Assembly (NCBI GenBank): GCA_964626715.1 | Contig: CAZVGP010000002.1 | Coordinates: 1 to 27,194 of the forward strand | Reading direction: 5' to 3' | From: an uncultured Candidatus Saccharibacteria bacterium | GTDB lineage: Bacteria; Patescibacteriota; Minisyncoccia; Phycocordibacterales; Phycocordibacteraceae | Length of the DNA stretch: 27,194 nucleotides | Shown: positions 3,572-24,310 of the stretch, one piece after another | How the letters are laid out: each line of letters opens with the position of its first letter | How positions within the stretch are numbered: position 1 is the first letter of the stretch | Notes under the pieces: generated by a model | What the model saw: the letters and a program-made list of their open reading frames with translations, nothing else | What the model was told of the DNA's origin: nothing | Database searches by the model: none | Position numbers and translations under genes: made by a program

Positions 3572-3660
3572 ATCCCGTTAGAGATTACCACATGGTCGAA
3601 TATTTATGCATCATTACCATGATACGGAAACCTCTGGTTTCCTATCTCTAACGAGATGAA
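3568..3660. mobile_element. E3: inverted-repeat-bounded insert with ATGAA direct repeats at the yvcK1/yvcK2 junction
   Basis: IR atcccgttagagat (3572-3585) / atctctaacgagat (3644-3657), 1 mismatch. ATGAA at 3568-3572 (contains the yvcK1 TGA) and 3656-3660 (yvcK2 start). Confidence 0.75.
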
Positions 3661-4906: not shown

Positions 4907-5422
4907 TATTTTCTGGATTTTGATCGGACGCTGTTTGATACCTCGGCCTTTCTCGCGTATATCGTAGAACGCGATGGATTGGATGAACTTCGATCGAAAA
5001 CCGAGGTCGAGATGGCGGCACGTCTCAATGGTCCCGTGGCGGAAGGCGCAATCCGTTTTGAGAAGGACGAACTCGCGCAGTTCCTTTTTCCTGATGCCGC
5101 GGTGTTTCTCAAGGCACACGGGAAGGAATCGGTTATCGTAACGGCGGGGAATCCTGCGCTTCAAAGAGCAAAATGCGAGAATGTCTTTGCGTCCTATCCG
5201 ATCTTCGCTATCATCTACGCGGATGATGAACGGAAGGGACCGGTGCTCGCGAAAGTGGCCGGTTCGTTCCCGAAACCTTGGATTTTTATCGACGACAAGC
5301 CCGCCGAGCTTGAGTCAGTGGTTGTCCTGCTACCTGAAATGTCCGTCTATCAATCCGGTCGCGGCACTCTTCCTGTGTTGGGAGCGTACCCGGTCATCCA
5401 TTCGCTTGCCGAGCTCCCATGA
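4901..5422 (+). CDS. HAD superfamily hydrolase
   Basis: MTYFLDFDRTLFDT (DxDxT motif I), IVTAG (motif II), FIDDK (motif IV). Start at ATG 4901 right after E4; the track start at 4859 lies inside E4. Confidence 0.85.
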   Translation: MTYFLDFDRTLFDTSAFLAYIVERDGLDELRSKTEVEMAARLNGPVAEGAIRFEKDELAQFLFPDAAVFLKAHGKESVIVTAGNPALQRAKCENVFASYPIFAIIYADDERKGPVLAKVAGSFPKPWIFIDDKPAELESVVVLLPEMSVYQSGRGTLPVLGAYPVIHSLAELP

Positions 5423-5489
5423 ACCCTGTTAGGTATCAGGAGGTGCTTGTGTACATGAATAACCCACGTCCATTATCTAACGGGATGAA
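5419..5489. mobile_element. E5: short inverted-repeat-bounded insert with ATGAA direct repeats, in frame with the downstream gene
   Basis: cctgttaggta (5425-5435) / tatctaacggg (5474-5484), with two G-T pairs. ATGAA at 5419-5423 and 5485-5489, offset 66 nt. Confidence 0.7.
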
Positions 5490-6516
5490 GCTTCTCATCG
5501 TGACGCAGGCAGTCGATCGGGAAGATCCGATCCTCGGGTTTTTTCATCGCTGGATCGAGGAATTCACGAAGCACTGGGATCGCATTGAAGTCATCTGTCT
5601 TCGAGAGGGGGGACACGCGCTTCCGGGAAACGTGCGCATACATTCTTTAGGCAAAGAGCGCCCATCTGCGCATGCAAACGGCGCGCTCCGCCGCCTCGTA
5701 TACGCATGGTGCCTTCTCAAGCTCGCGTGGCAGCTTCGCCGCGGCTACGACGTTGTCTTCGTGCATATGAGTCAGGAGTATGTCCTTGTTGCCGGATGGT
5801 TTTGGAAACTCTTGGGAAAGAAGGTGTATCTGTGGCGGAATCACTACGCAGGTTCCCTAGTGACCGACGCGGCTGCGCTTTTCTGCCAAAAGATTTTTTA
5901 TACCTCCGTGCATTCGTACACTGCAAAATATGCTGACGCAGTGCGCATGCCGGTCGGGGTCGATACAGTGAGGTTCTGTCCGGACACCCGCGCCAGACGC
6001 GTGCCGCGCTCGATCCTCTTTCTTTCACGCATGGCGCCCTCGAAACGCGCCGGCATGCTCATCGAAGCGCTCGCGATGCTCGCGCGCCGCGGCGTCGATT
6101 TTTCCGCTTCTTTCGTGGGCTCTCCTCTTTCTCAAGACGATGCATATTACGAATCGCTGAAGCAGCGCGCAAAGATCGCAGGCATCGCCGAACGCGTTTC
6201 CTTCTTGCCGGCCGTACCAAACGTCAAGGCTCCGGCGCTCTATCGCACCCATGAGATATTCGTGAACTGCTCTCCCTCCGGGATGCTCGACAAGACCATT
6301 CTTGAGGCGGCGTCCTGCGGGTGCATAGTACTTGCCTCGAGCGCGGATTTTGCCCTAGTAGCCGGCCCGGAGTATCATTTTGCAACGGCAGAAGAGCTTG
6401 CCGGAAAGATAGCAGCGAATCTCGGGCATACTCCGGCCGAAACGCTTTCCCTGCTTGTACCGGCGCATGCGCTTCCGGCGCTGGCTGCTCGCCTCGCTCA
6501 AGAGATGCGATCATGA
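5485..6516 (+). CDS. Glycosyltransferase family 4
   Basis: MKLLIVTQAVD start, LFLSRMAPSKR, GMLDKTILEAASCG. Could alternatively start at 5419 with an element-derived 22-aa extension. Confidence 0.88.
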   Translation: MKLLIVTQAVDREDPILGFFHRWIEEFTKHWDRIEVICLREGGHALPGNVRIHSLGKERPSAHANGALRRLVYAWCLLKLAWQLRRGYDVVFVHMSQEYVLVAGWFWKLLGKKVYLWRNHYAGSLVTDAAALFCQKIFYTSVHSYTAKYADAVRMPVGVDTVRFCPDTRARRVPRSILFLSRMAPSKRAGMLIEALAMLARRGVDFSASFVGSPLSQDDAYYESLKQRAKIAGIAERVSFLPAVPNVKAPALYRTHEIFVNCSPSGMLDKTILEAASCGCIVLASSADFALVAGPEYHFATAEELAGKIAANLGHTPAETLSLLVPAHALPALAARLAQEMRS

Positions 6517-7313
6517 GTACCAGCACCATCCCTTGCACTGTCGCCATTCTCACGAAAGATTCCGCCTCGACTCTTGAACGGGTGCTTGAAAGCGTGAAAG
6601 GTTTTTCGGACATCATCGTGTGCGATGGCGGCTCGACCGATGAAACGTCTAGAATCGCATATGCCTTCGGCGCACGCGTGATCCGGCAGGATGCCCGCTT
6701 TCTCGATGCCGAAAGCCGCATCGCCGATTTTGCCGGGGTACGCAACCAGACCCTGCACGCGGCGCGCGAACGCTGGTTTTTCTTCCTGGATTCTGATGAA
6801 GAGGCAAGTCCGGAGCTCGTTTCTCGTATCCGCGAAATCGCCACAGACTCGAAGATAGCAGCCTATTGGATCGCGCGACTATATGAATACAGAGGAGTGC
6901 GCATCACGTGCTCCGCGAGTTATCCTAATCGGCAGATACGCTTTTTCCATCGCGAAGGCGTCACGGGTTTCCGGAAAAGAGTCCATGAGCGGGTCGCCAT
7001 TTCCCCCGAAACTCCGATACGGGCTCTTTCCGAGGCAATCCTCGTCCCGGTTTCGGAAGACCAGGAAATCCTTGCTGCAAAGACAGAGCGGTACCTTCGC
7101 ATGGAGGTTGAGCGTCTCGCGGGAATCGGCCCCGCAGCGCTTCGCAGAGGTGTTTTTGACGGCGCAAAGAGCGTTCTGAGCTGGATCGCGCGCTTCGCGC
7201 ACAGCGCGCTTTTCTGCCACGGCACGTGGCTGCCGCTTTCATACGAATTTCGATCGGTACGTTACCAAGTCGCGCTTGTGAGAATGTTACTTGCACGTCT
7301 TTTCAATATATGA
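6513..7313 (+). CDS. Glycosyltransferase family 2 (LgtF/KdtX-like beta-glycosyltransferase)
   Basis: IIVCDGGSTDET, WFFFLDSDE (DxD), RQIRFF, VHER. Start at ATG 6513 overlapping the upstream TGA (ATGA). Confidence 0.88.
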   Translation: MSTSTIPCTVAILTKDSASTLERVLESVKGFSDIIVCDGGSTDETSRIAYAFGARVIRQDARFLDAESRIADFAGVRNQTLHAARERWFFFLDSDEEASPELVSRIREIATDSKIAAYWIARLYEYRGVRITCSASYPNRQIRFFHREGVTGFRKRVHERVAISPETPIRALSEAILVPVSEDQEILAAKTERYLRMEVERLAGIGPAALRRGVFDGAKSVLSWIARFAHSALFCHGTWLPLSYEFRSVRYQVALVRMLLARLFNI

Positions 7314-8404
7314 AAATCGTCATCATAGTGCAAAACATGGTTACCGGAGGAGTCGCCCGCCTCATTGTTGATGAGATAAACGAACTGGAACGGCGGGGTG
7401 TGCCCGTGTGGCTCATATTCTTCGAGCGGTTACAAGCGGGGAACACGCTTATTGATGGATGCAGTCTGCCTTCCGAACGAAAAATATATATACCCTACCC
7501 ACGCCTGCGGAGCATAACCGGGATGTTCGCACTCGTGCGCTTATTGCGTCATATCCAGCCTGATGTGGTTTTCACGCACATGTGGTTTGCTAACACCGTT
7601 GGGCGTTTTGCTGCCTGCATCGCGGGCATCCCCCAAATCTATATATTTGAGCACAGTGAATACGATACGGTGAAATCCAGAAAGCAGTTCATGTTGGACA
7701 TGCTTCTCCAGCATATCACGACACGTGTCATCGCGGTTTCAGATGCTGTGAAGGGGTCTCTCATCAGGCATCGAATCTATCCAAAGAAAATAACGGTCAT
7801 TCACAACGGGGTTGATTTGACAGGATATACGCATAAAGAAGTTGCCAGCAGCATTCGTGCAGAACTTTCCGTGCCTGCAGAAGCATTCCTGTATATCTTT
7901 GTCGGAAGGCTTATCGGTGATAAGGGAGTTGATGTCTTGCTTCGCGCTTTAGCAAAATTACCGCAGGATATCCGCTTGCTCGTTGCGGGGACTGGCCCTG
8001 AAGCGGCAGCGCTTCAATCACTTTCACACGCACTCGGCGTTAGCGATCGGGCATATTTTTTGGGCGTACGCAACGATGTATCGCGATTACTTTCTGGGTC
8101 AGATGCGCTCGTTCTTCCCTCGCGCCGCGAAGGGTTCGGGTTGGTTATTATTGAGGCGCATGCGGCGGGGTTACCCGTCATTGTCACCGATTTTAAAACT
8201 TCTTCTGATGTCGTTCGAGACGGTGTCGACGGCCTTATTGTGCCACGTGATGATGCCGATGCACTGGCGGCTGCTATGAAGAAGCTCGCCACCGATACGT
8301 TGTTTTATCAAGAACTTGCACGTGCGGCGCCGCAGGATTTGGATGACGTATCCATAGTACACAATGTCGATGCGCTTCTTGCCCTTGCCAGGCGGGAACC
8401 CTAA
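7310..8404 (+). CDS. Glycosyltransferase family 4
   Basis: MKIVIIVQNMVTGG, IHNGVD, FVGRLIGDKG, EGFGLVIIEAHAAGLPVI. ATGA overlap at 7310-7313. Confidence 0.92.
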   Translation: MKIVIIVQNMVTGGVARLIVDEINELERRGVPVWLIFFERLQAGNTLIDGCSLPSERKIYIPYPRLRSITGMFALVRLLRHIQPDVVFTHMWFANTVGRFAACIAGIPQIYIFEHSEYDTVKSRKQFMLDMLLQHITTRVIAVSDAVKGSLIRHRIYPKKITVIHNGVDLTGYTHKEVASSIRAELSVPAEAFLYIFVGRLIGDKGVDVLLRALAKLPQDIRLLVAGTGPEAAALQSLSHALGVSDRAYFLGVRNDVSRLLSGSDALVLPSRREGFGLVIIEAHAAGLPVIVTDFKTSSDVVRDGVDGLIVPRDDADALAAAMKKLATDTLFYQELARAAPQDLDDVSIVHNVDALLALARREP

Positions 8405-8444
8405 CATATTTGTACCTGGCCGCGAGAAAGCGTTGAGAAGGCGC

Positions 8445-8450
8445 TACAAT
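8445..8450 (+). promoter_or_regulatory. -10-like TACAAT upstream of GTG 8464
   Basis: gcgcTACAATagctacgagtaacGTG in a 59-nt intergenic gap; no well-spaced -35. Confidence 0.3.
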
Positions 8451-8463
8451 AGCTACGAGTAAC

Positions 8464-9978
8464 GTGTCACAGAAAATCATTTCCTACACCGAATCCATTC
8501 GCCAGCTGGTTTCTTCGCGTCTTTTTGAAATTATCGTCTGTGCAGTTCTGTTTCTGGTCGCGCTTTTATTCGCGACGTATCATCTCACTGAAAGCCCTGC
8601 CGTCTGGTACGACGAGGGGTTCTATACACAGCTTGCCCTCAACGCTTCCCACGGTGACGGATTCCGCTTGCAGATCGAGCCCGGAGGGCTCGTTTCCGGG
8701 AGCGCCGTAACTGCTGGGTATCCGCTGACTGCACCGGTCGCGCTTTCGTACCTGGTGTTCGGCCAGAGCGTTTTTGCCGGAAGGATCGTGATGGTTCTTT
8801 TTATCCTCGCGCTTCTCGTGAGTTCCTATGCATTCGTGCGGAAGCTGTACGGCGCTTCTGCCGCGATGCTCTCGGCGCTTCTTTTTGTCACGTTCCCGGT
8901 TTTGTACGGAGATGGCAAGAGTGTGCTCGGCGAAGTGCCCGGGCTTTTTTTTGTAATGCTCACGTTCATTTCGCTCCTTGCGCTTGAAAGGCACGAATGG
9001 CGGGGCGTCTGGCGTTTCGTGCTTCTCGGTCTTTTTTCTGGGTTAGCGATCGTGACGAAACCGATTTATATCCTTCTCCTACCGGCCGCATTCGTCGGCA
9101 TCCTCTGGCGCGGCCGCGCATTCTTTCGGCAGCCTCTCGGCATCCTGGCCGCTGCCGCCGCCTTCGGGGTTGCGTTCGGGACATGGATCCTCACACAGTT
9201 CACCGGCACGGATTCTCTCGGCACCATGCTTTCCTTTTATCTGAATCCCTACGAAGCGGGAGATATCGTGCGACTCATGCTCGAGAACCTGCTTCGTTTT
9301 GTGAAGGAGGCAAGCCCGCTCTACCTTCTCTTTTTCCTTGCCGTGTGGTGGGGAAGCTTGTGGTTGCGACGGAAAACAGTTACTGTCGTCGAAGGTACTG
9401 CGGCCGCATTCGCCTGCCTCGTTGTTCTCTTTTACCTCCGCACGCCAGGGTGGTATCGCTATTTCTTTCCGGCACAGATCATAGCGTTATTGTTTTTGCC
9501 TGCAGCTCTGCTCTACCTTGCTTCCTCGATCAGTAATCGGTTTTCCCGTGTCCGGCCTCATCTTCTAATGCTTCTCGTATGCACACTCATCGCGCTACTG
9601 GCAGGAATCCAGCTCTATCAGCTCTCCAGGACCTCGTATGTCGCTTCGTACTACCACAGCACGCGCACCGCGGCGCTTACGGCTTATTTCGATACACTCT
9701 CAACGGATACGAGCATATTTGCCTACAACGTCCCGGAAACAGTGGTCTTTTTCAAGACAAAAGAGTATTATCAATACCTAGCGCCGCATCCGGAGCAGAT
9801 CATCGGCGGGGAAGCATTGCATGCCCTTGTCGCAGGCTCTGCCGATATTGTTATCGTAAATGACGCGACCTACAAGCAAAACTCCGTTCCTTTCAGTGCG
9901 TACGCTCCTCAACAAACTGTAAGCCACTATGTCATCCTCGCAAAAAAAGCTTCTCTCCCTGGTCATTCCGGTCTTTAA
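8464..9978 (+). CDS. Integral-membrane GT-C glycosyltransferase (ArnT/PMT-like, GT39/GT83-type)
   Basis: About 11-13 hydrophobic segments, WYDEGFY acidic motif after TM1, GLAIVTKP, and a soluble C-terminal tail. Confidence 0.85.
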   Translation: MSQKIISYTESIRQLVSSRLFEIIVCAVLFLVALLFATYHLTESPAVWYDEGFYTQLALNASHGDGFRLQIEPGGLVSGSAVTAGYPLTAPVALSYLVFGQSVFAGRIVMVLFILALLVSSYAFVRKLYGASAAMLSALLFVTFPVLYGDGKSVLGEVPGLFFVMLTFISLLALERHEWRGVWRFVLLGLFSGLAIVTKPIYILLLPAAFVGILWRGRAFFRQPLGILAAAAAFGVAFGTWILTQFTGTDSLGTMLSFYLNPYEAGDIVRLMLENLLRFVKEASPLYLLFFLAVWWGSLWLRRKTVTVVEGTAAAFACLVVLFYLRTPGWYRYFFPAQIIALLFLPAALLYLASSISNRFSRVRPHLLMLLVCTLIALLAGIQLYQLSRTSYVASYYHSTRTAALTAYFDTLSTDTSIFAYNVPETVVFFKTKEYYQYLAPHPEQIIGGEALHALVAGSADIVIVNDATYKQNSVPFSAYAPQQTVSHYVILAKKASLPGHSGL

Positions 9979-10891
9979 TGAAGAAGCGAACATCCGCCGT
10001 GTTTTCGAAGCGGTGATGAACGTGCTCGCTGGCAGTCCCTATGCGCTCGAGGTGATTTTCGTCAATGACGGTTCGTCTGACAGGAGCGCAGAACGGATCG
10101 AAGCACTAGCCAAGGAAAACTCCCAGGTCATTTCTATAGAGCTCTCGCGCAATTTTGGAAAGGAGGTTGCGCTTACAGCTGGCATCACCGAAGCGAAAGG
10201 CGATGCGGTTATCATGCTCGATGCCGACCTTCAGCATCCGCCCGCGCGCATCCCGGATTTTATTTCCGAATGGGAGCGCGGTGCAGAGGTAGTCATCGGT
10301 GTACGCGCCATAAGCGAACGGGAGTCGCTATTCCGACGCACCGGTTCTCGCATGTTCACTTTTCTTATGAACACCATCAGCGACATGCCGGCGGTACTTC
10401 ATGAAACTGATTTTCGTCTGATAGATAGGAAGGTGGCGGAAGAGTTCCGCCGTTTCGGCGAACACCGCCGTATCACGCGCGGCATCATCGATTGGCTCGG
10501 ATTCCGTCGCGCATTTGTGGGCTTTTCCGCTCCGGTGCGTGCCGCAGGAGGAAGGCGCTATAGCTATAAAAAACTTTTCGGGCTTGCATTTTCTGCGATT
10601 ATCGCGCACAGTTTTTTTCCGCTCCGTATCACGGGCTACCTCGGCCTTTTGGTTACGGCTTTTGCGGGGTTACTCGGCACGTTCATTATCATCGAACAGC
10701 CGCTTTTGGGAGATCCTCTCAATTTAGAAGTCTCGGGCACCGCGATGGTCGCCGTGATGATTTTGTTCCTGGTCGGCATCATTCTCACTGCCTTGGGGCT
10801 TCTAGCGCTCTATATAGAAAGCATAAAAAATGAAGTGACGGCTCGGCCGCTCTATGCGGTACGGAAAAGAACAGATTCGCAGAATGCATAA
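9929..10891 (+). CDS. Polyprenol-phosphate glycosyltransferase, GT2 (GtrB/ArnC-like)
   Basis: LVIPVFNEE, VNDGSSD, LSRNFGKEVALTAG, MLDADLQHPP, two C-terminal TM helices, RPLY tail. Confidence 0.92.
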   Translation: MSSSQKKLLSLVIPVFNEEANIRRVFEAVMNVLAGSPYALEVIFVNDGSSDRSAERIEALAKENSQVISIELSRNFGKEVALTAGITEAKGDAVIMLDADLQHPPARIPDFISEWERGAEVVIGVRAISERESLFRRTGSRMFTFLMNTISDMPAVLHETDFRLIDRKVAEEFRRFGEHRRITRGIIDWLGFRRAFVGFSAPVRAAGGRRYSYKKLFGLAFSAIIAHSFFPLRITGYLGLLVTAFAGLLGTFIIIEQPLLGDPLNLEVSGTAMVAVMILFLVGIILTALGLLALYIESIKNEVTARPLYAVRKRTDSQNA

Positions 10892-10896
10892 GCACG

Positions 10897-12189
10897 ATGC
10901 GCGACATTCTTGTCACCGCGGACGATCTCGGGCTTACTCAAGGCGTTACTGATTCTATCTTAGAGACTGCTGATGCTGGCGTGGTCAGGGCTGTCAGCAT
11001 TCTCGCAAATGGCGAAGCGACGGAGTATGCGCTTGGCGAGTACTTGAAGCGGAAAGATCATCTGCAGCTTTTCGTGCACCTGAATCTTACGGATGGGCGC
11101 CCTGTTTCAGCTCTTTCTGCGGTCCCGCTTCTTCTTAACGCAAAGGGCATGTTCCGTTATTCAGTAGGTGGCCTGCTGATCCGCTATGTTTTTTTATCAT
11201 CTTCGAGGCGCGCAGAACTGCGCGAGCAGATACGCCGAGAACTCTCGGCGCAGTATGCGTTAGTGCGTGATGGAATCGAAGGGGTAGGGAAGATCAACGG
11301 GGTAAACGGCCATCAGCACGTACACATGGTGCCCTTCGTGTTTGACGTGATCGTCGCGTTGCCTACTATTTCTTCGATTCGCATTCCTCGTGAGCCTTTT
11401 CATATACCAGCAGTCGGTTCGCTTCTTTCAATAGGGACGCGTATCCCCGGATGGATAGCACTGATGATATTTTCAAAAAGGAATCGTGCCCGTGTGTTGC
11501 CGGATCGTATAACAACGGATTACTTTGCCGGGGCGCTCTATTCAGGGCGCATGTCATTCGCTTCTACGTGGGCAGCTCTCAGGAAATTTACAGCAATTCG
11601 CACCCCGTTTTCGGTCGAACTACTCTTTCATCCGTGGCTCGCTACTCAAGCAGAGCTTGAACGATGGAGCGGCAAGCCCGTTGCATCCATGTGGTATTCA
11701 CGGCAGAGAGGCCAGGAACATGCCCTTGTCTTGAGCGGCGAATGCAGAACACTGATACAAGATTTTTCCGAAGGCCGGCCTTCTTCAGCCGATGCAGGCA
11801 TTTCGAAGATCTTTCGTTTTCTGATTTCCGGCACTCTCGCCGCGTTCGTGAATCTTACGGCACTCTATGTGCTCACGAGCCTGCTGGGCGTGTGGTATAT
11901 GTATTCTCTCGTTCTGTCGTTTTTAGTCGCGTTCGCGGTGAGCTTTACTTTACAGAAATTCTGGACGTTTCAAGATACTGCGGTGCATCAGGCAGACAGA
12001 CAACTGATTCAGTTTTTGCTTTTGCAGATTCTGAATCTCGCCGTTAATGCCATTGCCGTGTATGTGCTCGTCGAATATGTTCAGGTATGGTATCTGTCCG
12101 CGCAATTTCTCACTCTTATCGCGATTGCCGCCTGGACGTTTCTTGCTTCTCATTTCATATTCAATATCGATAGTAAGAATCAAACATGA
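10897..12189 (+). CDS. YdjC/ChbG (HpnK/NaxD-like) carbohydrate deacetylase fused to a C-terminal GtrA-like flippase domain
   Basis: N-terminal VTADDLG, HLNLTDG.P, GHQHVH, ELLFHP. C-terminal RFLISG...FTLQKFWTF...four TM helices, typical of GtrA. Confidence 0.85.
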   Translation: MRDILVTADDLGLTQGVTDSILETADAGVVRAVSILANGEATEYALGEYLKRKDHLQLFVHLNLTDGRPVSALSAVPLLLNAKGMFRYSVGGLLIRYVFLSSSRRAELREQIRRELSAQYALVRDGIEGVGKINGVNGHQHVHMVPFVFDVIVALPTISSIRIPREPFHIPAVGSLLSIGTRIPGWIALMIFSKRNRARVLPDRITTDYFAGALYSGRMSFASTWAALRKFTAIRTPFSVELLFHPWLATQAELERWSGKPVASMWYSRQRGQEHALVLSGECRTLIQDFSEGRPSSADAGISKIFRFLISGTLAAFVNLTALYVLTSLLGVWYMYSLVLSFLVAFAVSFTLQKFWTFQDTAVHQADRQLIQFLLLQILNLAVNAIAVYVLVEYVQVWYLSAQFLTLIAIAAWTFLASHFIFNIDSKNQT

Positions 12190-14372
12190 ACATCCTCTAC
12201 ATCGCCAACATCCGATTCCCGACCGAGATGGCGCATGGTGCGCAGATCGCCAAAGCGTGCGAGGCGTTTGCCGCGGCGGGAGAGCATGTGGAACTTCTGG
12301 TGCCGAACCGGTGGACACCGATCACCGAGTCGTGGCAAGCGTACTACGGGGTACGGATATCTTTCCCTGTCACAAAACTTCCGATTCCCGACACGGTCCG
12401 GAGATGGGGAAGCTTCGGTTTTATTGTGCAGATACTTTCATTCGCTTTTGCCCTAGCGCGATACGCGAAAAAGCGAAAAGCCGATGTCGTGTACGGCCGC
12501 GATGAGCATGTGCTGTTTCTCGCGCTGCTTTTCGGCGTGCGGAATGTTGTGTGGGAATCACACGACGGCGCATGGAACTTTTCCGCGCGCTTCGTCGTGA
12601 AACGTGCGGGAAAGTTGGTCGTCGTCTCCGAAGGACAGCGCACGTTCTATACCCAGAAAGGAATTCCAGCCGGAAAAATACTTGCCATAGCGAACGGTGT
12701 CGATGTCGAATCATTCGCGCACGTCGAATCAAGAGAAAAAGTGCGGAAACGTCTCGGCCTCCTGCCGGATGCATTTATTGCGCTCTATGTCGGCGCATTG
12801 AATGGCTGGAAAGGGACCGGAACGCTTTTCGAAGCCGCGAAGCTTCTTCCCGATGTTCGTGTCGTCGCTATCGGCGGGTATCCGAGGCAAGTAGAAACCC
12901 TGCGCAAGCGCTATCCGCAGGTCACGTTTCTCGGGGCTCGCCCGTATTCGGAGCTCCCCGACAATCTTTCAGCCGCTGATGTGTGTGTCCTACCGAATAC
13001 GGGCACAGACCCAGTGTCGGTTTCATTTACTTCACCCCTGAAGCTCTTGGCGTATATGGCGGCAGGAAAGCCGGTCGTCGCTTCTGATTTGCCGAGCGTG
13101 CGGGAACTTGCGGGAGATGACGCCGCTCTCTACGTACCCTCGGATAATTCGTCAGCCCTCGCAGGGGGCATAGAGCATCTTCGAAAAAATGCTGCTATCG
13201 CGAAGCGTCTTGGCAAGAGAGCCCGGGAGCAGAGCTTTTCGTTTGACTGGTCAATACGGGCAAAACGCATCCTCTCGCATCTCAATTCGCATCAGACATC
13301 CGTTCTTGCAATATATCGCGGCAGGCTCTCGGAGAATCGCGGCACGCCCATACGCGTCCGGAGCATTCTTGAACGCTTGGCAAAAGACAAGCGCTTTTCA
13401 CTCACCGTCGCGTCCTGGGACGACACGCTGCCCTTTGCAGCTTCTCGCGTTTATCTCTCAAACGGGAAGTACCAGGACCTAGAAGTTCTTCTTCGCGTCG
13501 TGCGACAGGAACGTGTGCGCATCATCATCGGCCACACCATGTCTGCGTGGTACTATCTTGCACTTTTGAAAATCATGACTGGCGTAAAAATCGTCCTTGA
13601 GATGCACGGCTTTCTGGAAATCGAGGCTCGCTTCTACGGCTCTATCGGCATATTCCGCTACTGGTTTGAACGCGGCATCTACGGGCTTTTCTACCCAATG
13701 TGTGGCCTCATCACGACCTGCAGCGAGAACGCCGCAGAAATTCTCTCCCGCTATAATTCCTCCGTTGCGCCGATATATGGCGGAGTCGACACAAACCTGT
13801 TCCGCCCTGATGTCAGACCGGGAACATTCTTTGATCGCGCGCCAGGTGATATCGTTATCGGCTATGCCGGGAACCTGCGCAAGTGGCAAGGCGTGCCGTT
13901 CCTTCTGGATGCGTTTAAAAAGCTTCGTGCGAAGGATCCCCTCTTCCGACTGGCCATACTCTCGAGCGAGGAAAAAAATCTTCCATCGGGGGGCGGTATT
14001 ACCGTTGTTCCCGGCGTTTTGCACGAGCGGGTCCCGGCATTCCTTGCCGCGTGCGACATCCTTGTCATTCCACGCGTCGAAGACGCCGTGAGCCGGATCT
14101 CGTTTCCCTCCAAGCTTCCCGAGTATCTTTCGATGGGGAAGCCGGTCGTCGCAAGCGCTACCTCCGATGCAGACCGGGTCATTGCGGACGGCGTCGACGG
14201 GTTCGTGTTTCCGCCAGGCGATACGGATGCGTTTCTCGGCATACTGCGCTCGCTCAAAGACGCGGCGCTTCGCGAGCGGGTCGGGAACGCCGCTCGCGAG
14301 ACGGCGCTTCGTAACTTTTCATGGGACAGGCAGGTTGGTATACTGGCCTCACGATTAGAGGTTATTTCCTAA
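12186..14372 (+). CDS. Fusion of two GT4 glycosyltransferase modules
   Basis: 728 aa with two complete GT-B units (FTSPLKLLAYMAAGKPVVASD; FPSKLPEYLSMGKPVVAS). Confidence 0.88.
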   Translation: MNILYIANIRFPTEMAHGAQIAKACEAFAAAGEHVELLVPNRWTPITESWQAYYGVRISFPVTKLPIPDTVRRWGSFGFIVQILSFAFALARYAKKRKADVVYGRDEHVLFLALLFGVRNVVWESHDGAWNFSARFVVKRAGKLVVVSEGQRTFYTQKGIPAGKILAIANGVDVESFAHVESREKVRKRLGLLPDAFIALYVGALNGWKGTGTLFEAAKLLPDVRVVAIGGYPRQVETLRKRYPQVTFLGARPYSELPDNLSAADVCVLPNTGTDPVSVSFTSPLKLLAYMAAGKPVVASDLPSVRELAGDDAALYVPSDNSSALAGGIEHLRKNAAIAKRLGKRAREQSFSFDWSIRAKRILSHLNSHQTSVLAIYRGRLSENRGTPIRVRSILERLAKDKRFSLTVASWDDTLPFAASRVYLSNGKYQDLEVLLRVVRQERVRIIIGHTMSAWYYLALLKIMTGVKIVLEMHGFLEIEARFYGSIGIFRYWFERGIYGLFYPMCGLITTCSENAAEILSRYNSSVAPIYGGVDTNLFRPDVRPGTFFDRAPGDIVIGYAGNLRKWQGVPFLLDAFKKLRAKDPLFRLAILSSEEKNLPSGGGITVVPGVLHERVPAFLAACDILVIPRVEDAVSRISFPSKLPEYLSMGKPVVASATSDADRVIADGVDGFVFPPGDTDAFLGILRSLKDAALRERVGNAARETALRNFSWDRQVGILASRLEVIS

Positions 14373-14393
14373 TGACGCCCGTGTAGCACCCGT

Positions 14394-14981
14394 ATGTCGA
14401 AAGAAGATTGGGCAGAAAATACGCTTCCTAAGATTTTCGCTCAGGCACATCTGTGGCCGTGGAAAGAAGGAGAGATCGAATCGGTTTTAGATGTCGGGTG
14501 CGGCCTCGCCCTGAAATCGAAATACATTCCTGCGCAGATCAGGGTCGGCGTCGACATCCACGAGCCATATTTCTCGCATATCGAATCCGATGTGCCGTAT
14601 GTCGTGGTGAAGTATGACGTCAGGAAGTTGCGTGATGTGTTCGTACCGAAAAGCTTTGACCTCGTGATCGGCTGCGACATTATAGAGCATTTGGAAAAGG
14701 ACGAAGGATTTGAGTTGCTCCGGCAGTGCGAGGAAATCGCCCGAAAAGCAGTCATTTCTGAAAATCCTCGCGGCTTCATCCCGCAGGACCTGGACATCCT
14801 CGGCTACGGCGGCGACCACTGGCAGACGCATCGCTCGGCATGGGAACCGCATGAGTTCGAAAAGCTGGGCTACAAAGTTCTCGTTCGCAATTATACGATG
14901 AGCGACAAAAAACGCCATTCCACTATTATCGGCATCGACCCGCACGTGCAGATGCTGGACGCGATCAAATTCATCGTTTGA
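14394..14981 (+). CDS. Class I SAM-dependent methyltransferase
   Basis: VLDVGCG motif I, VGVD, SFDLVIGCDIIEHL. Confidence 0.85.
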   Translation: MSKEDWAENTLPKIFAQAHLWPWKEGEIESVLDVGCGLALKSKYIPAQIRVGVDIHEPYFSHIESDVPYVVVKYDVRKLRDVFVPKSFDLVIGCDIIEHLEKDEGFELLRQCEEIARKAVISENPRGFIPQDLDILGYGGDHWQTHRSAWEPHEFEKLGYKVLVRNYTMSDKKRHSTIIGIDPHVQMLDAIKFIV

Positions 14982-14984
14982 ACC

Positions 14985-15989
14985 ATGAATCTCAGACATC
15001 TCGTTATCACAGGGGGAACCGGTTCGTTCGGGAACGCGATGGTGAATCGGTTGCTCGACGAGCCCGGCGTTGAAAAAATAACCATCTTCAGCCGCGACGA
15101 ACTGAAACAGCACGACATGCGCGAGCGGTTGGACTCGCCGAAGCTCGCATTCTTTATTGGCGACGTGCGCGATACAGAAGCGGTACAGGATGCGCTCTCC
15201 GGCGCGGATGCCGTATTCCATGCGGCGGCCTTAAAGCAGGTACCGACCGGCGAGTTCTTTCCGATGGAAGATGTCCGTACGAACACGATCGGCACGCACC
15301 ATGTCCTGGATCTAGCGGAAAAATGCGGCGTGAAGAAAGTTGTCGTACTCTCGACCGACAAGGCCGTCTATCCCATAAATGTCATGGGCATGTCAAAGGC
15401 ACTTGCCGAAAAGATTACCGAGGCGAAAGGCCGTACCTGCAAGAGCGATACCATCTTCACAATCACCCGCTATGGCAACGTTATGGCGTCGCGCGGTTCC
15501 GTCATCCCGCTGTTTATTGATCACATCAAACGTGGAGAAACGATTCCGATAACAGACCCGAGCATGACACGCTTCCTCTTGTCTCTTGAAGACGCGATTG
15601 ACCTGGTGTTGTTTGCGTTTGGAAACGCAAAACAAGGCGACTTGTTCATACGCAAGGCCCCGGCCGCTACCGTTCAAACGCTCGCGCAGGCTTTGTTGAA
15701 TATTTTTGAAGCAAAAAATCCAATACGCGTTATCGGCACACGTGCGGGAGAGAAGATCCACGAAACGCTTGCAACAGGGCTTGAGCTTGCTGTGGCAAAA
15801 GATATGGGGGACTATTTCAGGATCCCGAAACTGGTAAGCGGTTTGGACTATGAAAAGTTTTACAATGAGGGCGTGATCAAGAAAACCGCCGGAGACTACA
15901 CATCAGAAAATACCACTCGTCTCGACGTTCCCCAGACAGAAGCGCTGTTGCGGAGTTTGCCCTATATACAAAAGATGCTCAAACAATGA
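14985..15989 (+). CDS. fnlA: UDP-GlcNAc 4,6-dehydratase/epimerase (FnlA/WbjB/CapE)
   Basis: ITGGTGSFG, FSRDE.KQ.DMR, IGDVRD, HAAALKQVP, LSTDKAVYPIN.MG.SKA, RYGNVMASRGSVIPLF, MTRF. Confidence 0.93.
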   Translation: MNLRHLVITGGTGSFGNAMVNRLLDEPGVEKITIFSRDELKQHDMRERLDSPKLAFFIGDVRDTEAVQDALSGADAVFHAAALKQVPTGEFFPMEDVRTNTIGTHHVLDLAEKCGVKKVVVLSTDKAVYPINVMGMSKALAEKITEAKGRTCKSDTIFTITRYGNVMASRGSVIPLFIDHIKRGETIPITDPSMTRFLLSLEDAIDLVLFAFGNAKQGDLFIRKAPAATVQTLAQALLNIFEAKNPIRVIGTRAGEKIHETLATGLELAVAKDMGDYFRIPKLVSGLDYEKFYNEGVIKKTAGDYTSENTTRLDVPQTEALLRSLPYIQKMLKQ

Positions 15990-17104: not shown

Positions 17105-17128
17105 TATATACGGTAACCGCTTACTCAT

Positions 17129-18265: not shown

Positions 18266-18270
18266 CCGCA

Positions 18271-21723: not shown

Positions 21724-22870
21724 GGTCTCCGAACGCCTGAAGCGCTTGGGAGAAAGCTCGTGCGTTTTTTGAGAGGTCAAAATCGCGCACAAACGTTGCC
21801 CGGGCGTTTTCTATGAGTTTTGCAGCATGGTGCTTGTCCATCAGTAATTTTCGTATCGCGCTTTGAAGCGCGGATTGATTTTCGGTATCAACGACCTCTG
21901 CGAATCCGTTCTTGCGCGCATAACCCGCGAGGAAGCTTTCTGCCGGCGCATGGACGAGAATGGGCCGCCCCGAAATCAGGTACTCCGACGTCTTTCCGGG
22001 TGTCGCGGTGTTAATCACATCCGGCGCGTTTGTATGCCACGAAAGCGGAAGCAGGAGTATATCGGTGCTCGATTGGATAGCTGACATTTCAGAAGGAGAT
22101 GCCGATGCGAATCTTACGCGCGGTTCATCTGCGAATTTCTTTTCAAGTTGTGTTATGTGGCGCGTGGTATAGAGGGTTATTCGTACCTCGATGTCAGTCA
22201 TATTTCTGATTGCGCGGATGACATTGAGCACACTTCTTTCTTGCGCCCAGTAGATATTCCCCGTGTACAGTATCTCGTACGATTTCGGATGCGATGAGCG
22301 TTCGGACTGTGCGACAGCGTGCGGTAATAGGGTATTCGTAATCACTATGCAATGAAGCTGTTTTCCATATCGTTCACGATACATCTGCGCGTGGGCTTCA
22401 TTCGGGACTATGAGGAAAGCCGCTTTTCTAAGAAGCATCGGTTCGAAACAAAAGGCGAGCTGGTCCAGCGGAAATCCGAAGCGGTTGCCTTTGTACGGGT
22501 CGAAGAGATAGAGCGCGTATGGTTTACCGGTTATCTTTGACAAGATCCATGTGAGCACGAGCGCATGCCCTTTATCGCTCAATCCGATAAGGACTTCTAT
22601 ATCTTCACGGTAAATAATTTGTCTGCCATATCGCACAGTGTCGAAGAGAGACCCTATGAAGGTTCTGGTGCGATTGAAATAAAAGTATCGCCCGGGAAGT
22701 CTTGCTCCAGAAAGCGAAGAGCCTGCTGCCTTATCGGTAGTGAAGATAGCATATGAAGAAGGGTCAAAATTTGCGAAAAGCCGTTCAAAAAATAACGGGC
22801 TTGCGCCGCGCATCGGCGGGGCCCAAGAAGATATGACGAGGATTTTTTTTGGCAAGCGGATATTACGCAT
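21701..22870 (-). CDS. Glycosyltransferase, GT4-like (GT-B)
   Basis: ILVISSWAPP, ILYTGNIY, TPGKTSEYLISGRPILV. Its 3' end overlaps the convergent HAD gene by 23 nt. Confidence 0.82.
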   Translation of the reverse strand: MRNIRLPKKILVISSWAPPMRGASPLFFERLFANFDPSSYAIFTTDKAAGSSLSGARLPGRYFYFNRTRTFIGSLFDTVRYGRQIIYREDIEVLIGLSDKGHALVLTWILSKITGKPYALYLFDPYKGNRFGFPLDQLAFCFEPMLLRKAAFLIVPNEAHAQMYRERYGKQLHCIVITNTLLPHAVAQSERSSHPKSYEILYTGNIYWAQERSVLNVIRAIRNMTDIEVRITLYTTRHITQLEKKFADEPRVRFASASPSEMSAIQSSTDILLLPLSWHTNAPDVINTATPGKTSEYLISGRPILVHAPAESFLAGYARKNGFAEVVDTENQSALQSAIRKLLMDKHHAAKLIENARATFVRDFDLSKNARAFSQALQAFGDPTHALPQ

Positions 22871-24137
22871 GGCGGCGGGTCAGCATGTTCCACTGAATAC
22901 TTACAATGACAAGCGCGGCTATGATTTGGAGGTAGACGCTCACGATGACGCCCCACAAACCAAAAAGGGGGATGAAAAGAACGGCTGAAAGGATAAGCAA
23001 CGATTGCGGGACGTTCGACCAGTAGAACCATGATTTCGGTATCAGGTGTATTTTCGATTGTCCGACTGCGGTGAAGAAGGTAAGCGGCAACTGTAGGCAG
23101 AGTGTGAATGCGAACGCGATTGAGATCGGTATCGCCGTAACGTATTTTGGAAAAAGAATAGGGAAAAGGATCGGTGCGGCGAAGGCATAGAGGGCCGCAG
23201 TGCCGAAGCCGATTGCAAAGAGGATTACGAGCCGATGCACGAGAAGCCCGTTGATTTCCTTGATGGATCGGTGCGTGAGCTTAGGGAGGGCGAGCGGCGC
23301 TACGTTCTTGAACGAAGCGCGCAGCTGGTCTATGGGAGCGGTGGCGAGCGTATAGAGGGCGACGGGCGCAGCACCCAAGAAGTGGAAGATGAGGAAGCTG
23401 TCAATGTTCGACACAACATTTGTGAGAACCCCGATGAAACTCAAATGTTTTCCTTGCGCAATGATTTCCGGGTCATCCTCCGCGTTGGGAGGAAATTTTG
23501 CCATCGTGATGCGGTGGAAGAAATATCGAAGCGCTGTCCACGAAGCGAAATAGGCGGTAAGGATAAGAAAAAGATTCCCTGAAAAATACAGCGCTGCCGC
23601 CATGATAGCGGTTGCGATGCCTTGGCTTACCGCATAGTAACGGATCGCTTCTCCGAACAGCTTCTTGCTCTGAAGATAGACGTTATAGAGCCCCAAGGGA
23701 TCCATAAGGGGAATGAAGATGCCCGCGATAAAGAAGGCAAAGGCAAGCGCGGCGTTCCCCGCGAAGTAATAGTAGAGCGCGAGCGCGATGCTCGCGATGA
23801 GGCCGAGCATTCCCCAGCGAATCTTCACGCGAAGCGACGTCAGAAACGCCCCCTCTTTCCCGCGGGCGATCCCTTGAGCAAGCGGGGTATTGATGCCGGT
23901 CAGGGTGAAGGCGGAAAGCATGCTCACAACTGACAGGACATACTTATAGGTTCCGTAGGTTTCTTTCGGGATGAGGTTTGCGAAAAGGATTGCCAAGGTG
24001 AAGGACGAGAGGGAAGCGGCAAGCTGCCCCAATCCGAGCCATGAACCGCCTCTCATGAGATACCGCACATCGGTTTTCAGGCAACGTTCGCTCCAGCGAA
24101 GCCACGTCTCTCGGCGAGTTTCTGGTTCTTTAAACAC
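22863..24137 (-). CDS. wzx: Wzx-type oligosaccharide flippase
   Basis: About 12 TM segments with the pattern FANLIPKETYGTYKYVLS and ALYTLA. Start placed at GTG 24137, preceded by agggaag; the track start at 24293 runs through element D. Confidence 0.85.
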   Translation of the reverse strand: MFKEPETRRETWLRWSERCLKTDVRYLMRGGSWLGLGQLAASLSSFTLAILFANLIPKETYGTYKYVLSVVSMLSAFTLTGINTPLAQGIARGKEGAFLTSLRVKIRWGMLGLIASIALALYYYFAGNAALAFAFFIAGIFIPLMDPLGLYNVYLQSKKLFGEAIRYYAVSQGIATAIMAAALYFSGNLFLILTAYFASWTALRYFFHRITMAKFPPNAEDDPEIIAQGKHLSFIGVLTNVVSNIDSFLIFHFLGAAPVALYTLATAPIDQLRASFKNVAPLALPKLTHRSIKEINGLLVHRLVILFAIGFGTAALYAFAAPILFPILFPKYVTAIPISIAFAFTLCLQLPLTFFTAVGQSKIHLIPKSWFYWSNVPQSLLILSAVLFIPLFGLWGVIVSVYLQIIAALVIVSIQWNMLTRRHA

Positions 24138-24195
24138 AGCTTCCCTACATACTAGCGCGCCTTGATGAGGGTTTCGATGCCTCTCGGCAAGGATC

Positions 24196-24301
24196 GTATA
24201 CCTCATGAGAGGAGTTCGAGAGGGATAGGCGTATGCAAATTCCATACCCGGTGCCCGCCGTACGTCTGCTCCTCTTCCGGTTTTTTCTCTCACGGGGTAT
24301 A
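24196..24301. mobile_element. D: inverted-repeat-bounded insert with GTATA direct repeats in the wzx/ligase divergent intergenic region
   Basis: IR atacctcatgagag (24198-24211) / ctctcacggggtat (24287-24300), 12/14 match. GTATA at 24196-24200 and 24297-24301. Confidence 0.6.
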
Positions 24302-24303
24302 GT
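24298..24303 (+). promoter_or_regulatory. -10-like TATAGT, 7 nt upstream of ATG 24311 (possible leaderless promoter)
   Basis: ggggTATAGTaggcggcATG. Confidence 0.45.
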
Positions 24304-24310
24304 AGGCGGC

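What the first reader, a model, noticed from the sequence alone, without database searches (positions are those of the whole stretch)
8464..12189. Complete lipid-carrier amino-sugar modification module with a YdjC-deacetylase-GtrA flippase fusion
Adjacent genes encode a GT-C transferase, a polyprenol-phosphate GT2, and a YdjC deacetylase fused to GtrA. This matches the logic of the Bordetella lgm and Francisella flmF/naxD/flmK pathways: load HexNAc on C55-P, deacetylate it, flip it, then transfer hexosamine. Those pathways modify lipid A. No lipid A genes are in this window, and if the host is CPR (generally lacking LPS) the acceptor must be something else, such as pilin or S-layer glycan or the repeat unit. 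A single-polypeptide deacetylase-flippase would channel the lipid intermediate; I have not seen it characterised.
Basis: partly seen in the sequence, partly recalled or inferred. Interest (0 to 1): 0.72.

Follow-up and report, generated by a model that had tools for sequence, protein, structure and literature searches.

The report
Deacetylase-flippase fusion in surface-glycan module
Three tightly packed genes in an ultra-small, lipid-A-free bacterium look like a self-contained kit for putting a free-amine sugar on the cell surface, with the deacetylating enzyme and the presumed membrane "flippase" joined in one protein. The pathway logic is known from pathogens, but this fused form has not been studied experimentally.

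Summary
Window 8464-12189 encodes a GT-C transferase whose nearest fold is ArnT, a GtrB/ArnC-type polyprenyl-phosphate GT2, and one 430-aa protein joining a YdjC deacetylase to a four-helix GtrA domain.

The fusion is not a sequencing artefact. I retrieved 66 distinct fused proteins at 31-47% identity, and the five ChbG-type catalytic positions are invariant in 53 that I aligned. The same GT-C gene lies directly upstream in all eight fused loci examined.

Related fusions link every pair of components: GT2-YdjC, GT-C-GT2, GT-C-GtrA, and a reversed GtrA-YdjC in picocyanobacteria.

The 0.77-Mb genome (81% complete) has no LpxC, LpxB, KdtA or Omp85. LpxC was found in 0 of 41 genomes of the order. 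So this is not a lipid A system.

Best reading: a three-component extracytoplasmic glycosylation system with a built-in cytoplasmic-face deacetylase. It probably adds hexosamine to the Wzx/Wzy glycan of the surrounding conserved operon.

Acceptor, sugar identity and flipping are all inferred.

The module is absent from same-genus and same-family genomes.

This scan had already noted the same fusion type on other DNA.

Verdict: a new variant of a known kind, of moderate interest.

The parts
8464..9978 (+). GT-C fold membrane glycosyltransferase (504 aa), presumed extracytoplasmic transferase that uses the lipid-linked amino sugar
   Evidence: Pfam PMT_2 and PMT are above cut-off. The AF2 model has pLDDT 93.9. 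The nearest folds are ArnT 5f15/5ezm and Swiss-Prot ArnT entries at TM 0.57-0.63 and 11-16% identity. W48, D50 and E51 (the first-loop DE motif), K152, E157, K199 and R332 are invariant in 50 homologues. It lies directly upstream of the fusion in all 8 fused loci.
9929..10891 (+). GtrB/ArnC-type polyprenyl-phosphate glycosyltransferase (GT2, 320 aa)
   Evidence: PF00535 3.3e-34. Solved relatives are GtrB sll0501 at 2e-61 and ArnC at 1e-38. The best NCBIfam hits, PgfS (203 bits) and ArnC (145 bits), are both far below their equivalog cut-offs. It has two C-terminal TM helices at 237-255 and 274-292. D47, D98, D100 and Q102 are invariant.
10897..11760 (+). YdjC/ChbG-type de-N-acetylase domain of the fusion (residues 1-288), with no signal peptide or N-terminal TM helix
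   Evidence: Pfam YdjC 3.3e-34. The fold matches ChbG 7vi8 and EF3048 2i5i at target TM 0.79-0.83. D9, D10, H61, H139 and H245 are invariant. The first four align to ChbG D10, D11, H61 and H125. Residues 174-200 form an amphipathic basic helix.
11761..11793 (+). Short, poorly conserved linker (residues about 289-299)
   Evidence: pLDDT is 73-77 here. Mean pairwise identity is 0.17, against 0.38 in both flanking domains. The median gap between the aligned domains is 6 aa in 66 fused proteins.
11794..12189 (+). GtrA-family four-helix membrane domain of the fusion (residues 300-430)
   Evidence: Pfam GtrA_DPMS_TM 3.7e-20. Helices span 300-329, 334-357, 366-394 and 399-429. The QKxWTF motif (Q353, K354, W356, T357, F358) is conserved. 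The domain is as conserved as the enzyme domain (0.377 against 0.380; TM2 0.498). It is the only GtrA domain found in the genome.
5419..8404 (+). Context: conserved upstream cytoplasmic glycosyltransferases (GT4 at 5419-6516, GT2 at 6321-7313, GT4 at 7226-8404)
   Evidence: Pfam assignments are. Homologues lie upstream of the module in the same order in L019, L021, L022 and L023.
12186..14372 (+). Context: double GT4 glycosyltransferase (728 aa), joined to the fusion by an ATGA overlap
   Evidence: There are two GT4 modules. A homologue lies next to the module in L003, L004, L005, L019, L021, L022 (1137 bits) and L023.
14394..14981 (+). Context: class I SAM methyltransferase (195 aa); whether it belongs to the module is uncertain
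   Evidence: Pfam Methyltransf_25/11/12. An orthologue sits at the same position only in L022. Other fused loci carry unrelated methyltransferases next to, or fused to, the YdjC-GtrA protein.
22863..24293 (-). Context: Wzx-type flippase (Polysacc_synt)
   Evidence: Pfam PF01943 5e-13. Homologues lie a few kb from the module in L003, L004 and L023.
24233..26566 (+). Context: Wzy_C (polymerase/ligase/O-OTase superfamily) protein with a C-terminal TPR domain (777 aa)
   Evidence: Pfam Wzy_C 4.2e-17 plus TPR families. Homologues occur in L003 (852 bits) and L004.

Best explanation
This is a three-component extracytoplasmic glycosylation system of the GtrB / GtrA / GT-C type, with a fourth activity, a de-N-acetylase, built into the GtrA component.

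Proposed steps (each is inferred; the basis is given):
1. The GT2 transfers an N-acetyl-hexosamine from a nucleotide sugar to polyprenyl phosphate on the cytoplasmic face. Basis: family assignment.
2. The N-terminal YdjC domain removes the acetyl group, giving polyprenyl-P-hexosamine. It has no signal peptide and is held on the cytoplasmic face about 10 residues from TM1. Basis: intact Zn/acid-base site, topology, and analogy with NaxD/LgmC.
3. The GtrA domain binds the lipid intermediate and moves it to the outer leaflet. Basis: family role only; this is unproven even for the family.
4. The GT-C enzyme transfers the hexosamine to an extracytoplasmic acceptor.

The organism has no lipid A pathway, so the acceptor is not lipid A. 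The most likely acceptor is the Wzx/Wzy-type heteropolysaccharide built by the GT4/GT2 genes of the same conserved operon. The result would be a side branch carrying a free, possibly later modified, amine.

The fusion probably ensures that deacetylation precedes export.
For: Domain and fold assignments.

Catalytic competence:
- D9, D10, H61, H139 and H245 are invariant in 53 fused homologues.
- Four of them align to the ChbG base and Zn ligands (PMC9402603).

Functional coupling:
- All 8 fused loci have the same GT-C family directly upstream. A GtrB-like GT2 is adjacent or within two genes in 7 of them; the eighth contig ends.
- Unfused versions keep the same neighbours (L006, L019, L023, L024).
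- Rosetta-stone fusions join every pair of components: GT2+YdjC (P0082, P0158, P0219), GT-C+GT2 (P0236, P0326, P0344, P0347), GT-C+GtrA (P0290, L035, L075), GT2+GtrA (L030, L034, L036, L039), and reversed GtrA-YdjC beside a GtrB-like GT2 in Prochlorococcus/Cyanobium.

Topology:
- There is no N-terminal TM helix, and four TM helices follow the enzyme domain.
- In six relatives a SAM methyltransferase, which must be cytoplasmic, follows the fourth helix. This fits both ends of the GtrA domain being inside the cell.

Constraint on the membrane domain: it is as conserved as the enzyme domain, while the linker is not.

No lipid A pathway.

Single system: the genome has one YdjC, one GtrA, one GT-C of this family and one GtrB-like GT2.

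Glycan context:
- The GT4/GT2 genes on both sides are conserved with the module in L019 and L021-L023, and Wzx plus Wzy_C-TPR in L003, L004 and L023.
- A WbaP-type initiating transferase lies elsewhere in the genome.

Precedent: three-component systems decorate O-antigens and Gram-positive wall polymers (PMC11127046; PMC13390465 introduction).
Against: - No biochemical or expression data exist for any member.
- Sugar identity is unknown. The GT2 is closest to a glucose-transferring GtrB, and N-acetylation of the substrate is implied only by the deacetylase.
- GtrA-family flippase activity has never been shown directly. For Rv3789 it has been challenged (PMC12992685), and LgmD is dispensable in Bordetella (PMC4993483).
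- The acceptor rests on synteny alone. The GT-C carries PMT/GT39-type Pfam hits, and its closest fold, ArnT, uses a lipid acceptor, so a protein or lipid acceptor is not excluded.
- The genome is 81% complete.
Confidence: 0.62

Rival explanations
1. The donor pathway is the same, but the acceptor is a protein such as pilin, an S-layer protein or an adhesin. This would be an O-glycosylation system like actinobacterial Ppm1/Pmt or streptococcal Pgf.
For: - The GT-C hits Pfam PMT_2 and PMT, the protein O-mannosyltransferase families, and sources name its relatives "glycosyltransferase family 39".
- The best NCBIfam match of the GT2 is PgfS of the streptococcal protein-glycosylation system (5e-60).
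- A Wzy_C-TPR protein in the locus belongs to the superfamily that includes O-oligosaccharyltransferases.
Against: - The PgfS score of 203 is far below its 500 cut-off.
- Structurally, ArnT is closer than Pmt1/2/4, which rank 34-35 or lower.
- The module is embedded in, and co-conserved with, cytoplasmic GT4/GT2 genes and Wzx.
Confidence: 0.2
2. The donor pathway is the same, but the acceptor is a membrane-anchored lipid or lipoglycan, such as a glycolipid or an LTA-like polymer. The module would then act as a surface-charge modifier, the monoderm counterpart of ArnT/LgmB and analogous in purpose to gpgSDF or hexSDF.
For: - The closest folds are all ArnT, which has a lipid acceptor.
- Synthase-deacetylase-flippase triads that make cationic amino-sugar lipids are known (PMC11483062; PMC10128005).
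Against: - Identity to ArnT is only 11-16%.
- The gpg and hex systems use other enzyme families and have no GT-C step.
- Synteny points to a Wzx/Wzy glycan.
Confidence: 0.13
3. The GtrA domain is not a transporter. It would be a membrane anchor and polyprenyl-phosphate binding platform that presents the substrate to the deacetylase, and flipping would be done by another protein or occur spontaneously.
For: - The GtrA-like domain of P. furiosus DPMS is the membrane domain of a synthase (5mlz match; PMC12992685).
- In CPR genomes GtrA is fused to many different partners: GT2, GT-C and a GT47-like domain.
- The Rv3789 flippase role is disputed, and LgmD is dispensable.
Against: - The membrane domain is as conserved as the catalytic domain and carries invariant polar residues.
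- It is the only GtrA domain in the genome. I did not look for other candidate transporters of a monosaccharide-P-lipid.
- The 2026 DPMS study itself argues that its GtrA-like domain may flip the product.
Confidence: 0.3
4. The fusion is an assembly or sequencing artefact, or a decaying gene.
For: One relative (L019) has an in-frame stop between the two domains, followed by an ATG 30 nt later, so a single base change separates the fused state from the split state.
Against: - There are 66 distinct fused proteins from many samples.
- The linker is short and consistent, and the catalytic residues are invariant.
- The AF2 model is confident across both domains (pTM 0.82).
Confidence: 0.01

Closest known systems
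Bordetella LgmA/LgmB/LgmC(/LgmD) and Francisella FlmF2/NaxD/FlmK lipid A hexosamine modification
   Same: They use the same four-step logic and the same enzyme families: an ArnC-like GT2, a YdjC-family deacetylase acting on the lipid-linked HexNAc, and an ArnT-like GT-C. lgmA-C are required for GlcN on lipid A (PMC4993483). The family assignments of NaxD and LgmC come from my own knowledge.
   Different: Their acceptor is lipid A, which this lineage does not make. Their deacetylase is a separate protein. Sequence identity to ArnT/ArnC-type enzymes is low.
Shigella/Salmonella GtrA-GtrB-Gtr* and Gram-positive CsbB/GtcA/YfhO three-component glycosylation
   Same: They combine a GtrB-type GT2 (2e-61 to GtrB sll0501), a GtrA-family four-helix protein and a GT-C transferase that decorates a finished surface polymer outside the membrane (PMC11127046; PMC13390465).
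   Different: These systems have no deacetylation step and their components are separate proteins. They transfer Glc, Gal or GlcNAc unchanged.
Picocyanobacterial GtrA-YdjC proteins (Prochlorococcus MIT 0707, Cyanobium; loci L038, L045, L047, L067, L077)
   Same: The same two Pfam domains occur in one polypeptide, next to a GtrB-like GT2.
   Different: The domain order is reversed. They form a separate clade in the YdjC tree (support 99), so the fusion arose independently. The hosts are diderms with LPS. No A3-type GT-C scored in the up to 7 kb held on either side.
Pyrococcus furiosus type III dolichyl-phosphate mannose synthase (5mlz)
   Same: A cytoplasmic enzyme domain is fused to a GtrA-like four-helix domain that holds the polyprenyl-phosphate sugar and may flip it.
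   Different: The enzyme domain is the GT2 synthase rather than a deacetylase. The polar-pocket motifs of that TM domain are reported absent from bacterial GtrA proteins.
Mycobacterium PpgS (Rv3631) / Rv3779 galactosamine decoration of arabinogalactan
   Same: It is a non-LPS precedent. Polyprenyl-P-GalNAc is made by a GT2, and GalN ends up on a cell-wall polysaccharide through a GT-C (my own knowledge). PpgS is a weak NCBIfam hit of the GT2 (5e-7).
   Different: To my knowledge the deacetylase of that pathway has not been identified. There is no YdjC-GtrA fusion, and sequence similarity is very low.
HpnK (hopanoid) and ChbG (chitobiose) YdjC deacetylases
   Same: They share the fold and catalytic residues.
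   Different: Scores are far below both equivalog cut-offs: HpnK 95 against 232.6, and ChbG 72 against 227. Both are soluble or stand-alone proteins acting on other substrates.

Membership tests
YdjC/ChbG carbohydrate deacetylase family (PF04794) | Profile match above the curated cut-off, and the YdjC alpha/beta barrel fold | tested here: met
   119.4 bits against a 29.7 cut-off. Foldseek gives target TM 0.79-0.83 to 2i5i and 7vi8.
YdjC/ChbG carbohydrate deacetylase family (PF04794) | General base D10 and Zn ligands D11, H61 and H125 (kpChbG numbering) | tested here: met
   D9, D10, H61 and H139 align to them (PMC9402603). All four are invariant in 53 fused homologues.
YdjC/ChbG carbohydrate deacetylase family (PF04794) | General acid H206 | tested here: inconclusive
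   H245 in an FHPG motif is invariant. Its equivalence to H206 was not shown residue by residue, because the pairwise alignment ends at residue 160.
GtrA family (PF04138) | Profile match above the cut-off and four transmembrane helices | tested here: met
   72.7 bits against a 26.1 cut-off. Four helices lie between residues 300 and 429.
GtrA family (PF04138) | Translocation of a polyprenyl-phosphate sugar | not testable with these tools
   The activity has not been demonstrated directly even for the family.
GtrB/ArnC/DPMS-type polyprenyl-phosphate glycosyltransferases (GT2) | GT-A catalytic domain with DxD motifs plus a C-terminal two-helix membrane hairpin, and close similarity to characterised members | tested here: met
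   PF00535 3.3e-34. GtrB sll0501 2e-61 and ArnC 1e-38. TM helices at 237-255 and 274-292. D47, D98 and D100 are invariant.
ArnC and PgfS equivalogs (NCBIfam NF007986, NF047588) | Score above the equivalog cut-off | tested here: not met
   ArnC 144.8 against 529; PgfS 203.3 against 500.
GT-C fold glycosyltransferases, PMT_2 clan (GT39/GT83-like) | Profile match, a multi-helix GT-C fold and an acidic motif in the first outer loop | tested here: met
   PMT_2 48.3 against 26.1. ArnT, OST and ALG are the top folds. D50 and E51 are invariant.
ArnT / LgmB / FlmK lipid A amino-sugar transferases | Lipid A as the acceptor, so the host must make lipid A | tested here: not met
   No LpxC, LpxB, KdtA-N or Omp85 in the 81%-complete genome. 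LpxC was found in 0 of 41 genomes of the order. Identity to ArnT is 11-16%.
HpnK (TIGR03473) and ChbG (NF002559) equivalogs | Score above the equivalog cut-off | tested here: not met
   HpnK 95.2 against 232.6; ChbG 72.2 against 227.
Three-component extracytoplasmic glycosylation systems | Co-located polyprenyl-P sugar synthase, small GtrA-type membrane protein and GT-C transferase | tested here: met
   All three are in one tight operon here and in 8 of 8 fused loci; the GT2 was seen in 7 of the 8.

The most novel reading that the evidence does not exclude
The fusion is a gated export device. The GtrA domain holds polyprenyl-P-HexNAc against the tethered deacetylase and releases only the free-amine product to the outer leaflet. 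In relatives with a third, methyltransferase domain, it would release a further methylated product. Ultra-small bacteria without LPS would thereby display cationic or N-modified amino sugars on a surface polymer. Such a charge and recognition determinant might matter for attachment to hosts or for phage evasion, and it is gained and lost as one cassette.
Probability: 0.2. Interest if true: 0.65.

Novelty: new variant of a known kind. Interest (0 to 1): 0.45.

Why it matters
GtrA proteins are the least understood part of a very widespread way of decorating bacterial surfaces. Whether they flip lipid-linked sugars at all is still debated.

A natural fusion of a GtrA domain to an enzyme that must act on the same lipid intermediate gives a handle on that question. 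The free amine produced is easy to label from one side of the membrane, so flipping could be measured directly.

It also shows that the "load, deacetylate, flip, transfer" route, known from lipid A modification and polymyxin resistance in pathogens, exists in lipid-A-free ultra-small bacteria. There it must serve another surface glycan.

The envelope chemistry of these organisms is almost unknown, and it probably governs their attachment to host cells.

Tried and rejected
- **Complex prediction of the GT2 with the fusion:** no verdict. This counts neither for nor against binding.
- **Sequence search of solved structures with the GT-C:** only spurious short hits. Fold search was needed.
- **A methyltransferase as a fixed fourth member of the module:** rejected in that form. 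Methyltransferases lie next to, or are fused to, the YdjC-GtrA gene in many relatives. They belong to different families and are not orthologous to each other or to window 14394-14981, at 16-26% identity. Only L022 has the window's type.
- **Is the fusion common in the host's lineage?** No. No full-length match was found in 400 sampled genomes of the phylum or in 400 of the class. The GT-C family was not found in five complete genomes of the same genus, family or order. These are samples, so this means "not found in those searched".
- **Recent foreign origin judged from composition:** no signal. Window GC is 0.533 and genome GC is 0.535.
- **Sequencing-error and dead-enzyme readings:** rejected.
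- **Literature:** I found no paper describing a YdjC-GtrA fusion in the searchable library. This is not proof that none exists.
- **Phylogeny:** the FastTree of 245 YdjC domains is a quick tree with many open forks. I use it only for two points: the CPR-type fused proteins cluster together, and the cyanobacterial reversed fusion is a separate clade. I do not use its counts of gains and losses, because some "unfused" rows may be fragments.

Full report
**What is there**

The + strand of window 8464-12189 carries three tightly packed genes.

- *GT-C gene, 8464-9978.* It encodes a 504-aa polytopic membrane protein with Pfam PMT_2 and PMT hits above cut-off. A sequence search of solved structures gave nothing useful. 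An AlphaFold2 model built on 50 homologues is confident (pLDDT 93.9). Its best solved match is ArnT of Cupriavidus (5f15, E 2.6e-8, TM 0.65), followed by OST, ALG and Aft enzymes. In the Swiss-Prot library, 29 of the 30 rows listed are ArnT, at TM 0.57-0.63 and only 11-16% identity. The first-loop acidic motif (W48, D50, E51) and several charged residues are invariant in the family.
- *GT2 gene, 9929-10891.* It encodes a 320-aa GT2 (PF00535, 3.3e-34) with two C-terminal TM helices. It is closest to the polyprenyl-phosphate glucosyltransferase GtrB of Synechocystis (2e-61) and then to ArnC (1e-38). It falls far below the NCBIfam equivalog cut-offs for PgfS and ArnC.
- *Fusion gene, 10897-12189.* It encodes a 430-aa protein with a YdjC domain (residues 4-288, 119 bits) and a GtrA domain (307-421, 73 bits). 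Its model (pLDDT 91.5, pTM 0.82) shows a YdjC barrel matching ChbG and EF3048 (target TM 0.79-0.83), a short linker and four TM helices.

**Is the fusion real and functional?**

A word-index search and an exhaustive HMMER search returned 66 distinct proteins with both domains in the same order. Sixty are 399-457 aa long. Six are 638-710 aa and carry an extra C-terminal methyltransferase. The median gap between the two domains is 6 residues. Where sources name an organism, it is a Paceibacterota, Nomurabacteria, Pacebacteria or similar candidate-phyla bacterium.

In 53 aligned fused proteins D9, D10, H61, H139, E241 and H245 are invariant. The pairwise alignment to Klebsiella ChbG places D9, D10, H61 and H139 on D10 (general base) and on D11, H61 and H125 (Zn ligands) (PMC9402603). 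H245 sits in an invariant FHPG motif and is presumably the general acid, though I did not show that equivalence residue by residue.

The GtrA part keeps the QKxWTF motif. It is as conserved as the enzyme part (mean pairwise identity 0.377 against 0.380; TM2 0.498), while the linker is not (0.17). A sequencing error or a dead domain is therefore excluded.

**Are the three genes one system?**

I built profiles of the four modules and scanned every locus fetched. All eight distinct fused loci (window, L001, L003, L004, L005, L020, L021, L022) have the same GT-C family directly upstream. Seven have a GtrB-like GT2 adjacent or within two genes; the eighth contig ends just after the fusion.

Unfused relatives keep the same neighbours:
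- Kaiserbacteria loci have GT-C, GT2 and YdjC, and one of them has a stand-alone GtrA 6 kb away (L006, L023, L024).
- A Yonathbacteria locus has YdjC and GtrA as adjacent genes in the same frame, separated by one stop codon and 30 nt (L019).

Other fusions link every pair of components:
- GT2+YdjC (P0082, P0158, P0219)
- GT-C+GT2 (P0236, P0326, P0344, P0347)
- GT-C+GtrA (P0290, L035, L075)
- GT2+GtrA (L030, L034, L036, L039)

Marine picocyanobacteria carry the reverse order, GtrA-YdjC, beside a GtrB-like GT2 (Pfam-confirmed for L038, L067 and L077). Their YdjC domains form a separate clade (support 99), so this is an independent fusion.

In the window's own genome each of the four modules occurs exactly once.

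**Host and acceptor**

The window is a whole contig of a 770-kb, 139-contig assembly that is 81% complete. Genomes of the same phylum, class and order are 0.4-1.4 Mb. This is a CPR/Patescibacteria-type organism.

LpxC, LpxB, the KdtA N-domain and Omp85 were not found in it. LpxC was found in 0 of 41 genomes of the order, 37 of them at least 90% complete. The system therefore cannot be an Lgm- or NaxD-type lipid A modifier.

The module sits inside a glycan operon that is conserved with it:
- GT4-GT2-GT4 upstream and a double GT4 downstream recur in L019 and L021-L023.
- L022 shares almost the whole window from 5419 to 22870.
- A divergent Wzx / Wzy_C-TPR pair recurs in L003 and L004, and Wzx alone in L023.
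- A WbaP-type initiating transferase lies on another contig.

By analogy with O-antigen and Gram-positive wall-polymer decoration (PMC11127046), the most economical reading is that the GT-C adds the hexosamine to this Wzx/Wzy polymer outside the membrane. That rests on synteny only. Protein or lipid acceptors remain possible.

**Mechanism and its weak points**

The YdjC domain starts at residue 1 with the catalytic ADDLG motif and has no signal peptide or TM helix. Four helices follow, and in six relatives a SAM methyltransferase follows the fourth helix. Both ends of the GtrA domain are therefore cytoplasmic, and deacetylation happens before export, as proposed for NaxD and LgmC.

An amphipathic basic helix at residues 174-200 may lie on the membrane surface. 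This is inference.

That the GtrA domain flips the product is the family's presumed role, not a shown one. The Rv3789 case is disputed, LgmD is dispensable, and the GtrA-like domain of archaeal DPMS is part of a synthase, although a 2026 structure suggests that domain may itself flip its product. An anchor or platform role is a serious rival.

A complex prediction for the GT2 with the fusion gave no verdict and counts for nothing.

**Distribution**

The fusion was not found in 400 sampled genomes of the phylum or in 400 of the class. The GT-C family was not found in five complete genomes of the same genus, family or order. The window has the same GC content as the genome.

So the module is a patchy accessory cassette that travels with variable glycan loci.

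**Comparison and novelty**

The pathway logic equals Bordetella LgmABC and Francisella FlmF2/NaxD/FlmK, and more generally GtrABC-type three-component systems. Membership of the lipid A systems fails on the acceptor. Membership of the ArnC, PgfS, HpnK and ChbG equivalogs fails on score.

Public databases already annotate such proteins as "ChbG/HpnK family deacetylase" or "ChbG ... / putative flippase GtrA". I found no paper on the fusion.

Earlier notes of this scan describe the same fusion type in at least five other genomes. They also describe the reversed cyanobacterial form, which had a follow-up. I confirmed the reversed form independently.

I rate this a new variant of a known kind, with interest 0.45.

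Noticed in passing
L001:9264-9968, L003:9308-10024, L004:9341-9967; proteins P0011, P0037, P0101, P0107, P0109, P0119; L053:6758-8560: SAM methyltransferases of several unrelated families (Methyltransf_23/11, FkbM/Methyltransf_21, MTS) lie directly after the YdjC-GtrA gene or are fused to its C-terminus. Planctomycete proteins fuse YdjC to a methyltransferase without GtrA. This suggests that the lipid-linked amino sugar is often methylated before export.
   Followed up: partly
L006:5287-7008 and the DNA-less contig of P0045: In Kaiserbacteria-type unfused loci a NodU/CmcH-type carbamoyltransferase lies directly upstream of, and overlaps, the YdjC gene, between it and the GT-C. Deacetylase plus methyltransferase plus carbamoyltransferase recalls NodB/NodS/NodU tailoring of Nod factors.
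   Followed up: no
L029:3445-4983, L035:6956-8887, L075:6806-8500, L030, L034, L036, L039; also ~510-550-aa GtrA-N-terminal ORFs in L043, L044, L048, L049, L081, L085: In CPR genomes the GtrA domain is fused to many different partners: GT-C, GT2, a GT47/exostosin-like domain, and others not identified. GtrA fusions appear to be a general habit of these genomes.
   Followed up: partly
L019:6974-8317: A Yonathbacteria locus has YdjC and GtrA in the same reading frame, separated by a single stop codon and 30 nt, with an ATG start for GtrA. One substitution separates the split state from the fused state.
   Followed up: yes
window 22863-26566: A divergent Wzx (- strand) and a 777-aa Wzy_C + TPR protein (+ strand) overlap by about 60 nt at their starts. 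The same pair recurs in L003 and L004. Whether the Wzy_C-TPR protein is a polymerase, a ligase or a protein O-oligosaccharyltransferase in an LPS-free organism is open.
   Followed up: partly
window 14985-18265: Three genes resemble the CapE/FnlA, CapF/FnlB and CapG/FnlC route to UDP-L-FucNAc: Polysacc_synt_2 with its C-terminal domain, an epimerase/reductase with PF14667, and a UDP-GlcNAc 2-epimerase family protein. All three are conserved in L022. The pathway assignment comes from my own knowledge and was not tested.
   Followed up: no
L003:1130-5378 and L004:363-4568: UbiA-type prenyltransferase (fused to a phosphatase in L003), a small EamA/SMR-like membrane protein, an SDR epimerase and a GT-C/large membrane protein lie together. 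This resembles the mycobacterial decaprenyl-phospho-arabinose or pentofuranose three-component route, here in CPR bacteria.
   Followed up: no
window 2603-4768: Two tandem YvcK/GlmR-like (CofD-related) paralogues lie inside the glycan cluster (TIGR01826 at 7e-83 and 8e-79). L021 has a single homologue at the corresponding place.
   Followed up: no
G143, G668, G702, G256, G284 (whole genomes): Complete genomes of the same genus, family and order lack both the fusion and its GT-C family. The module, and probably the whole glycan locus, varies between close relatives.
   Followed up: partly
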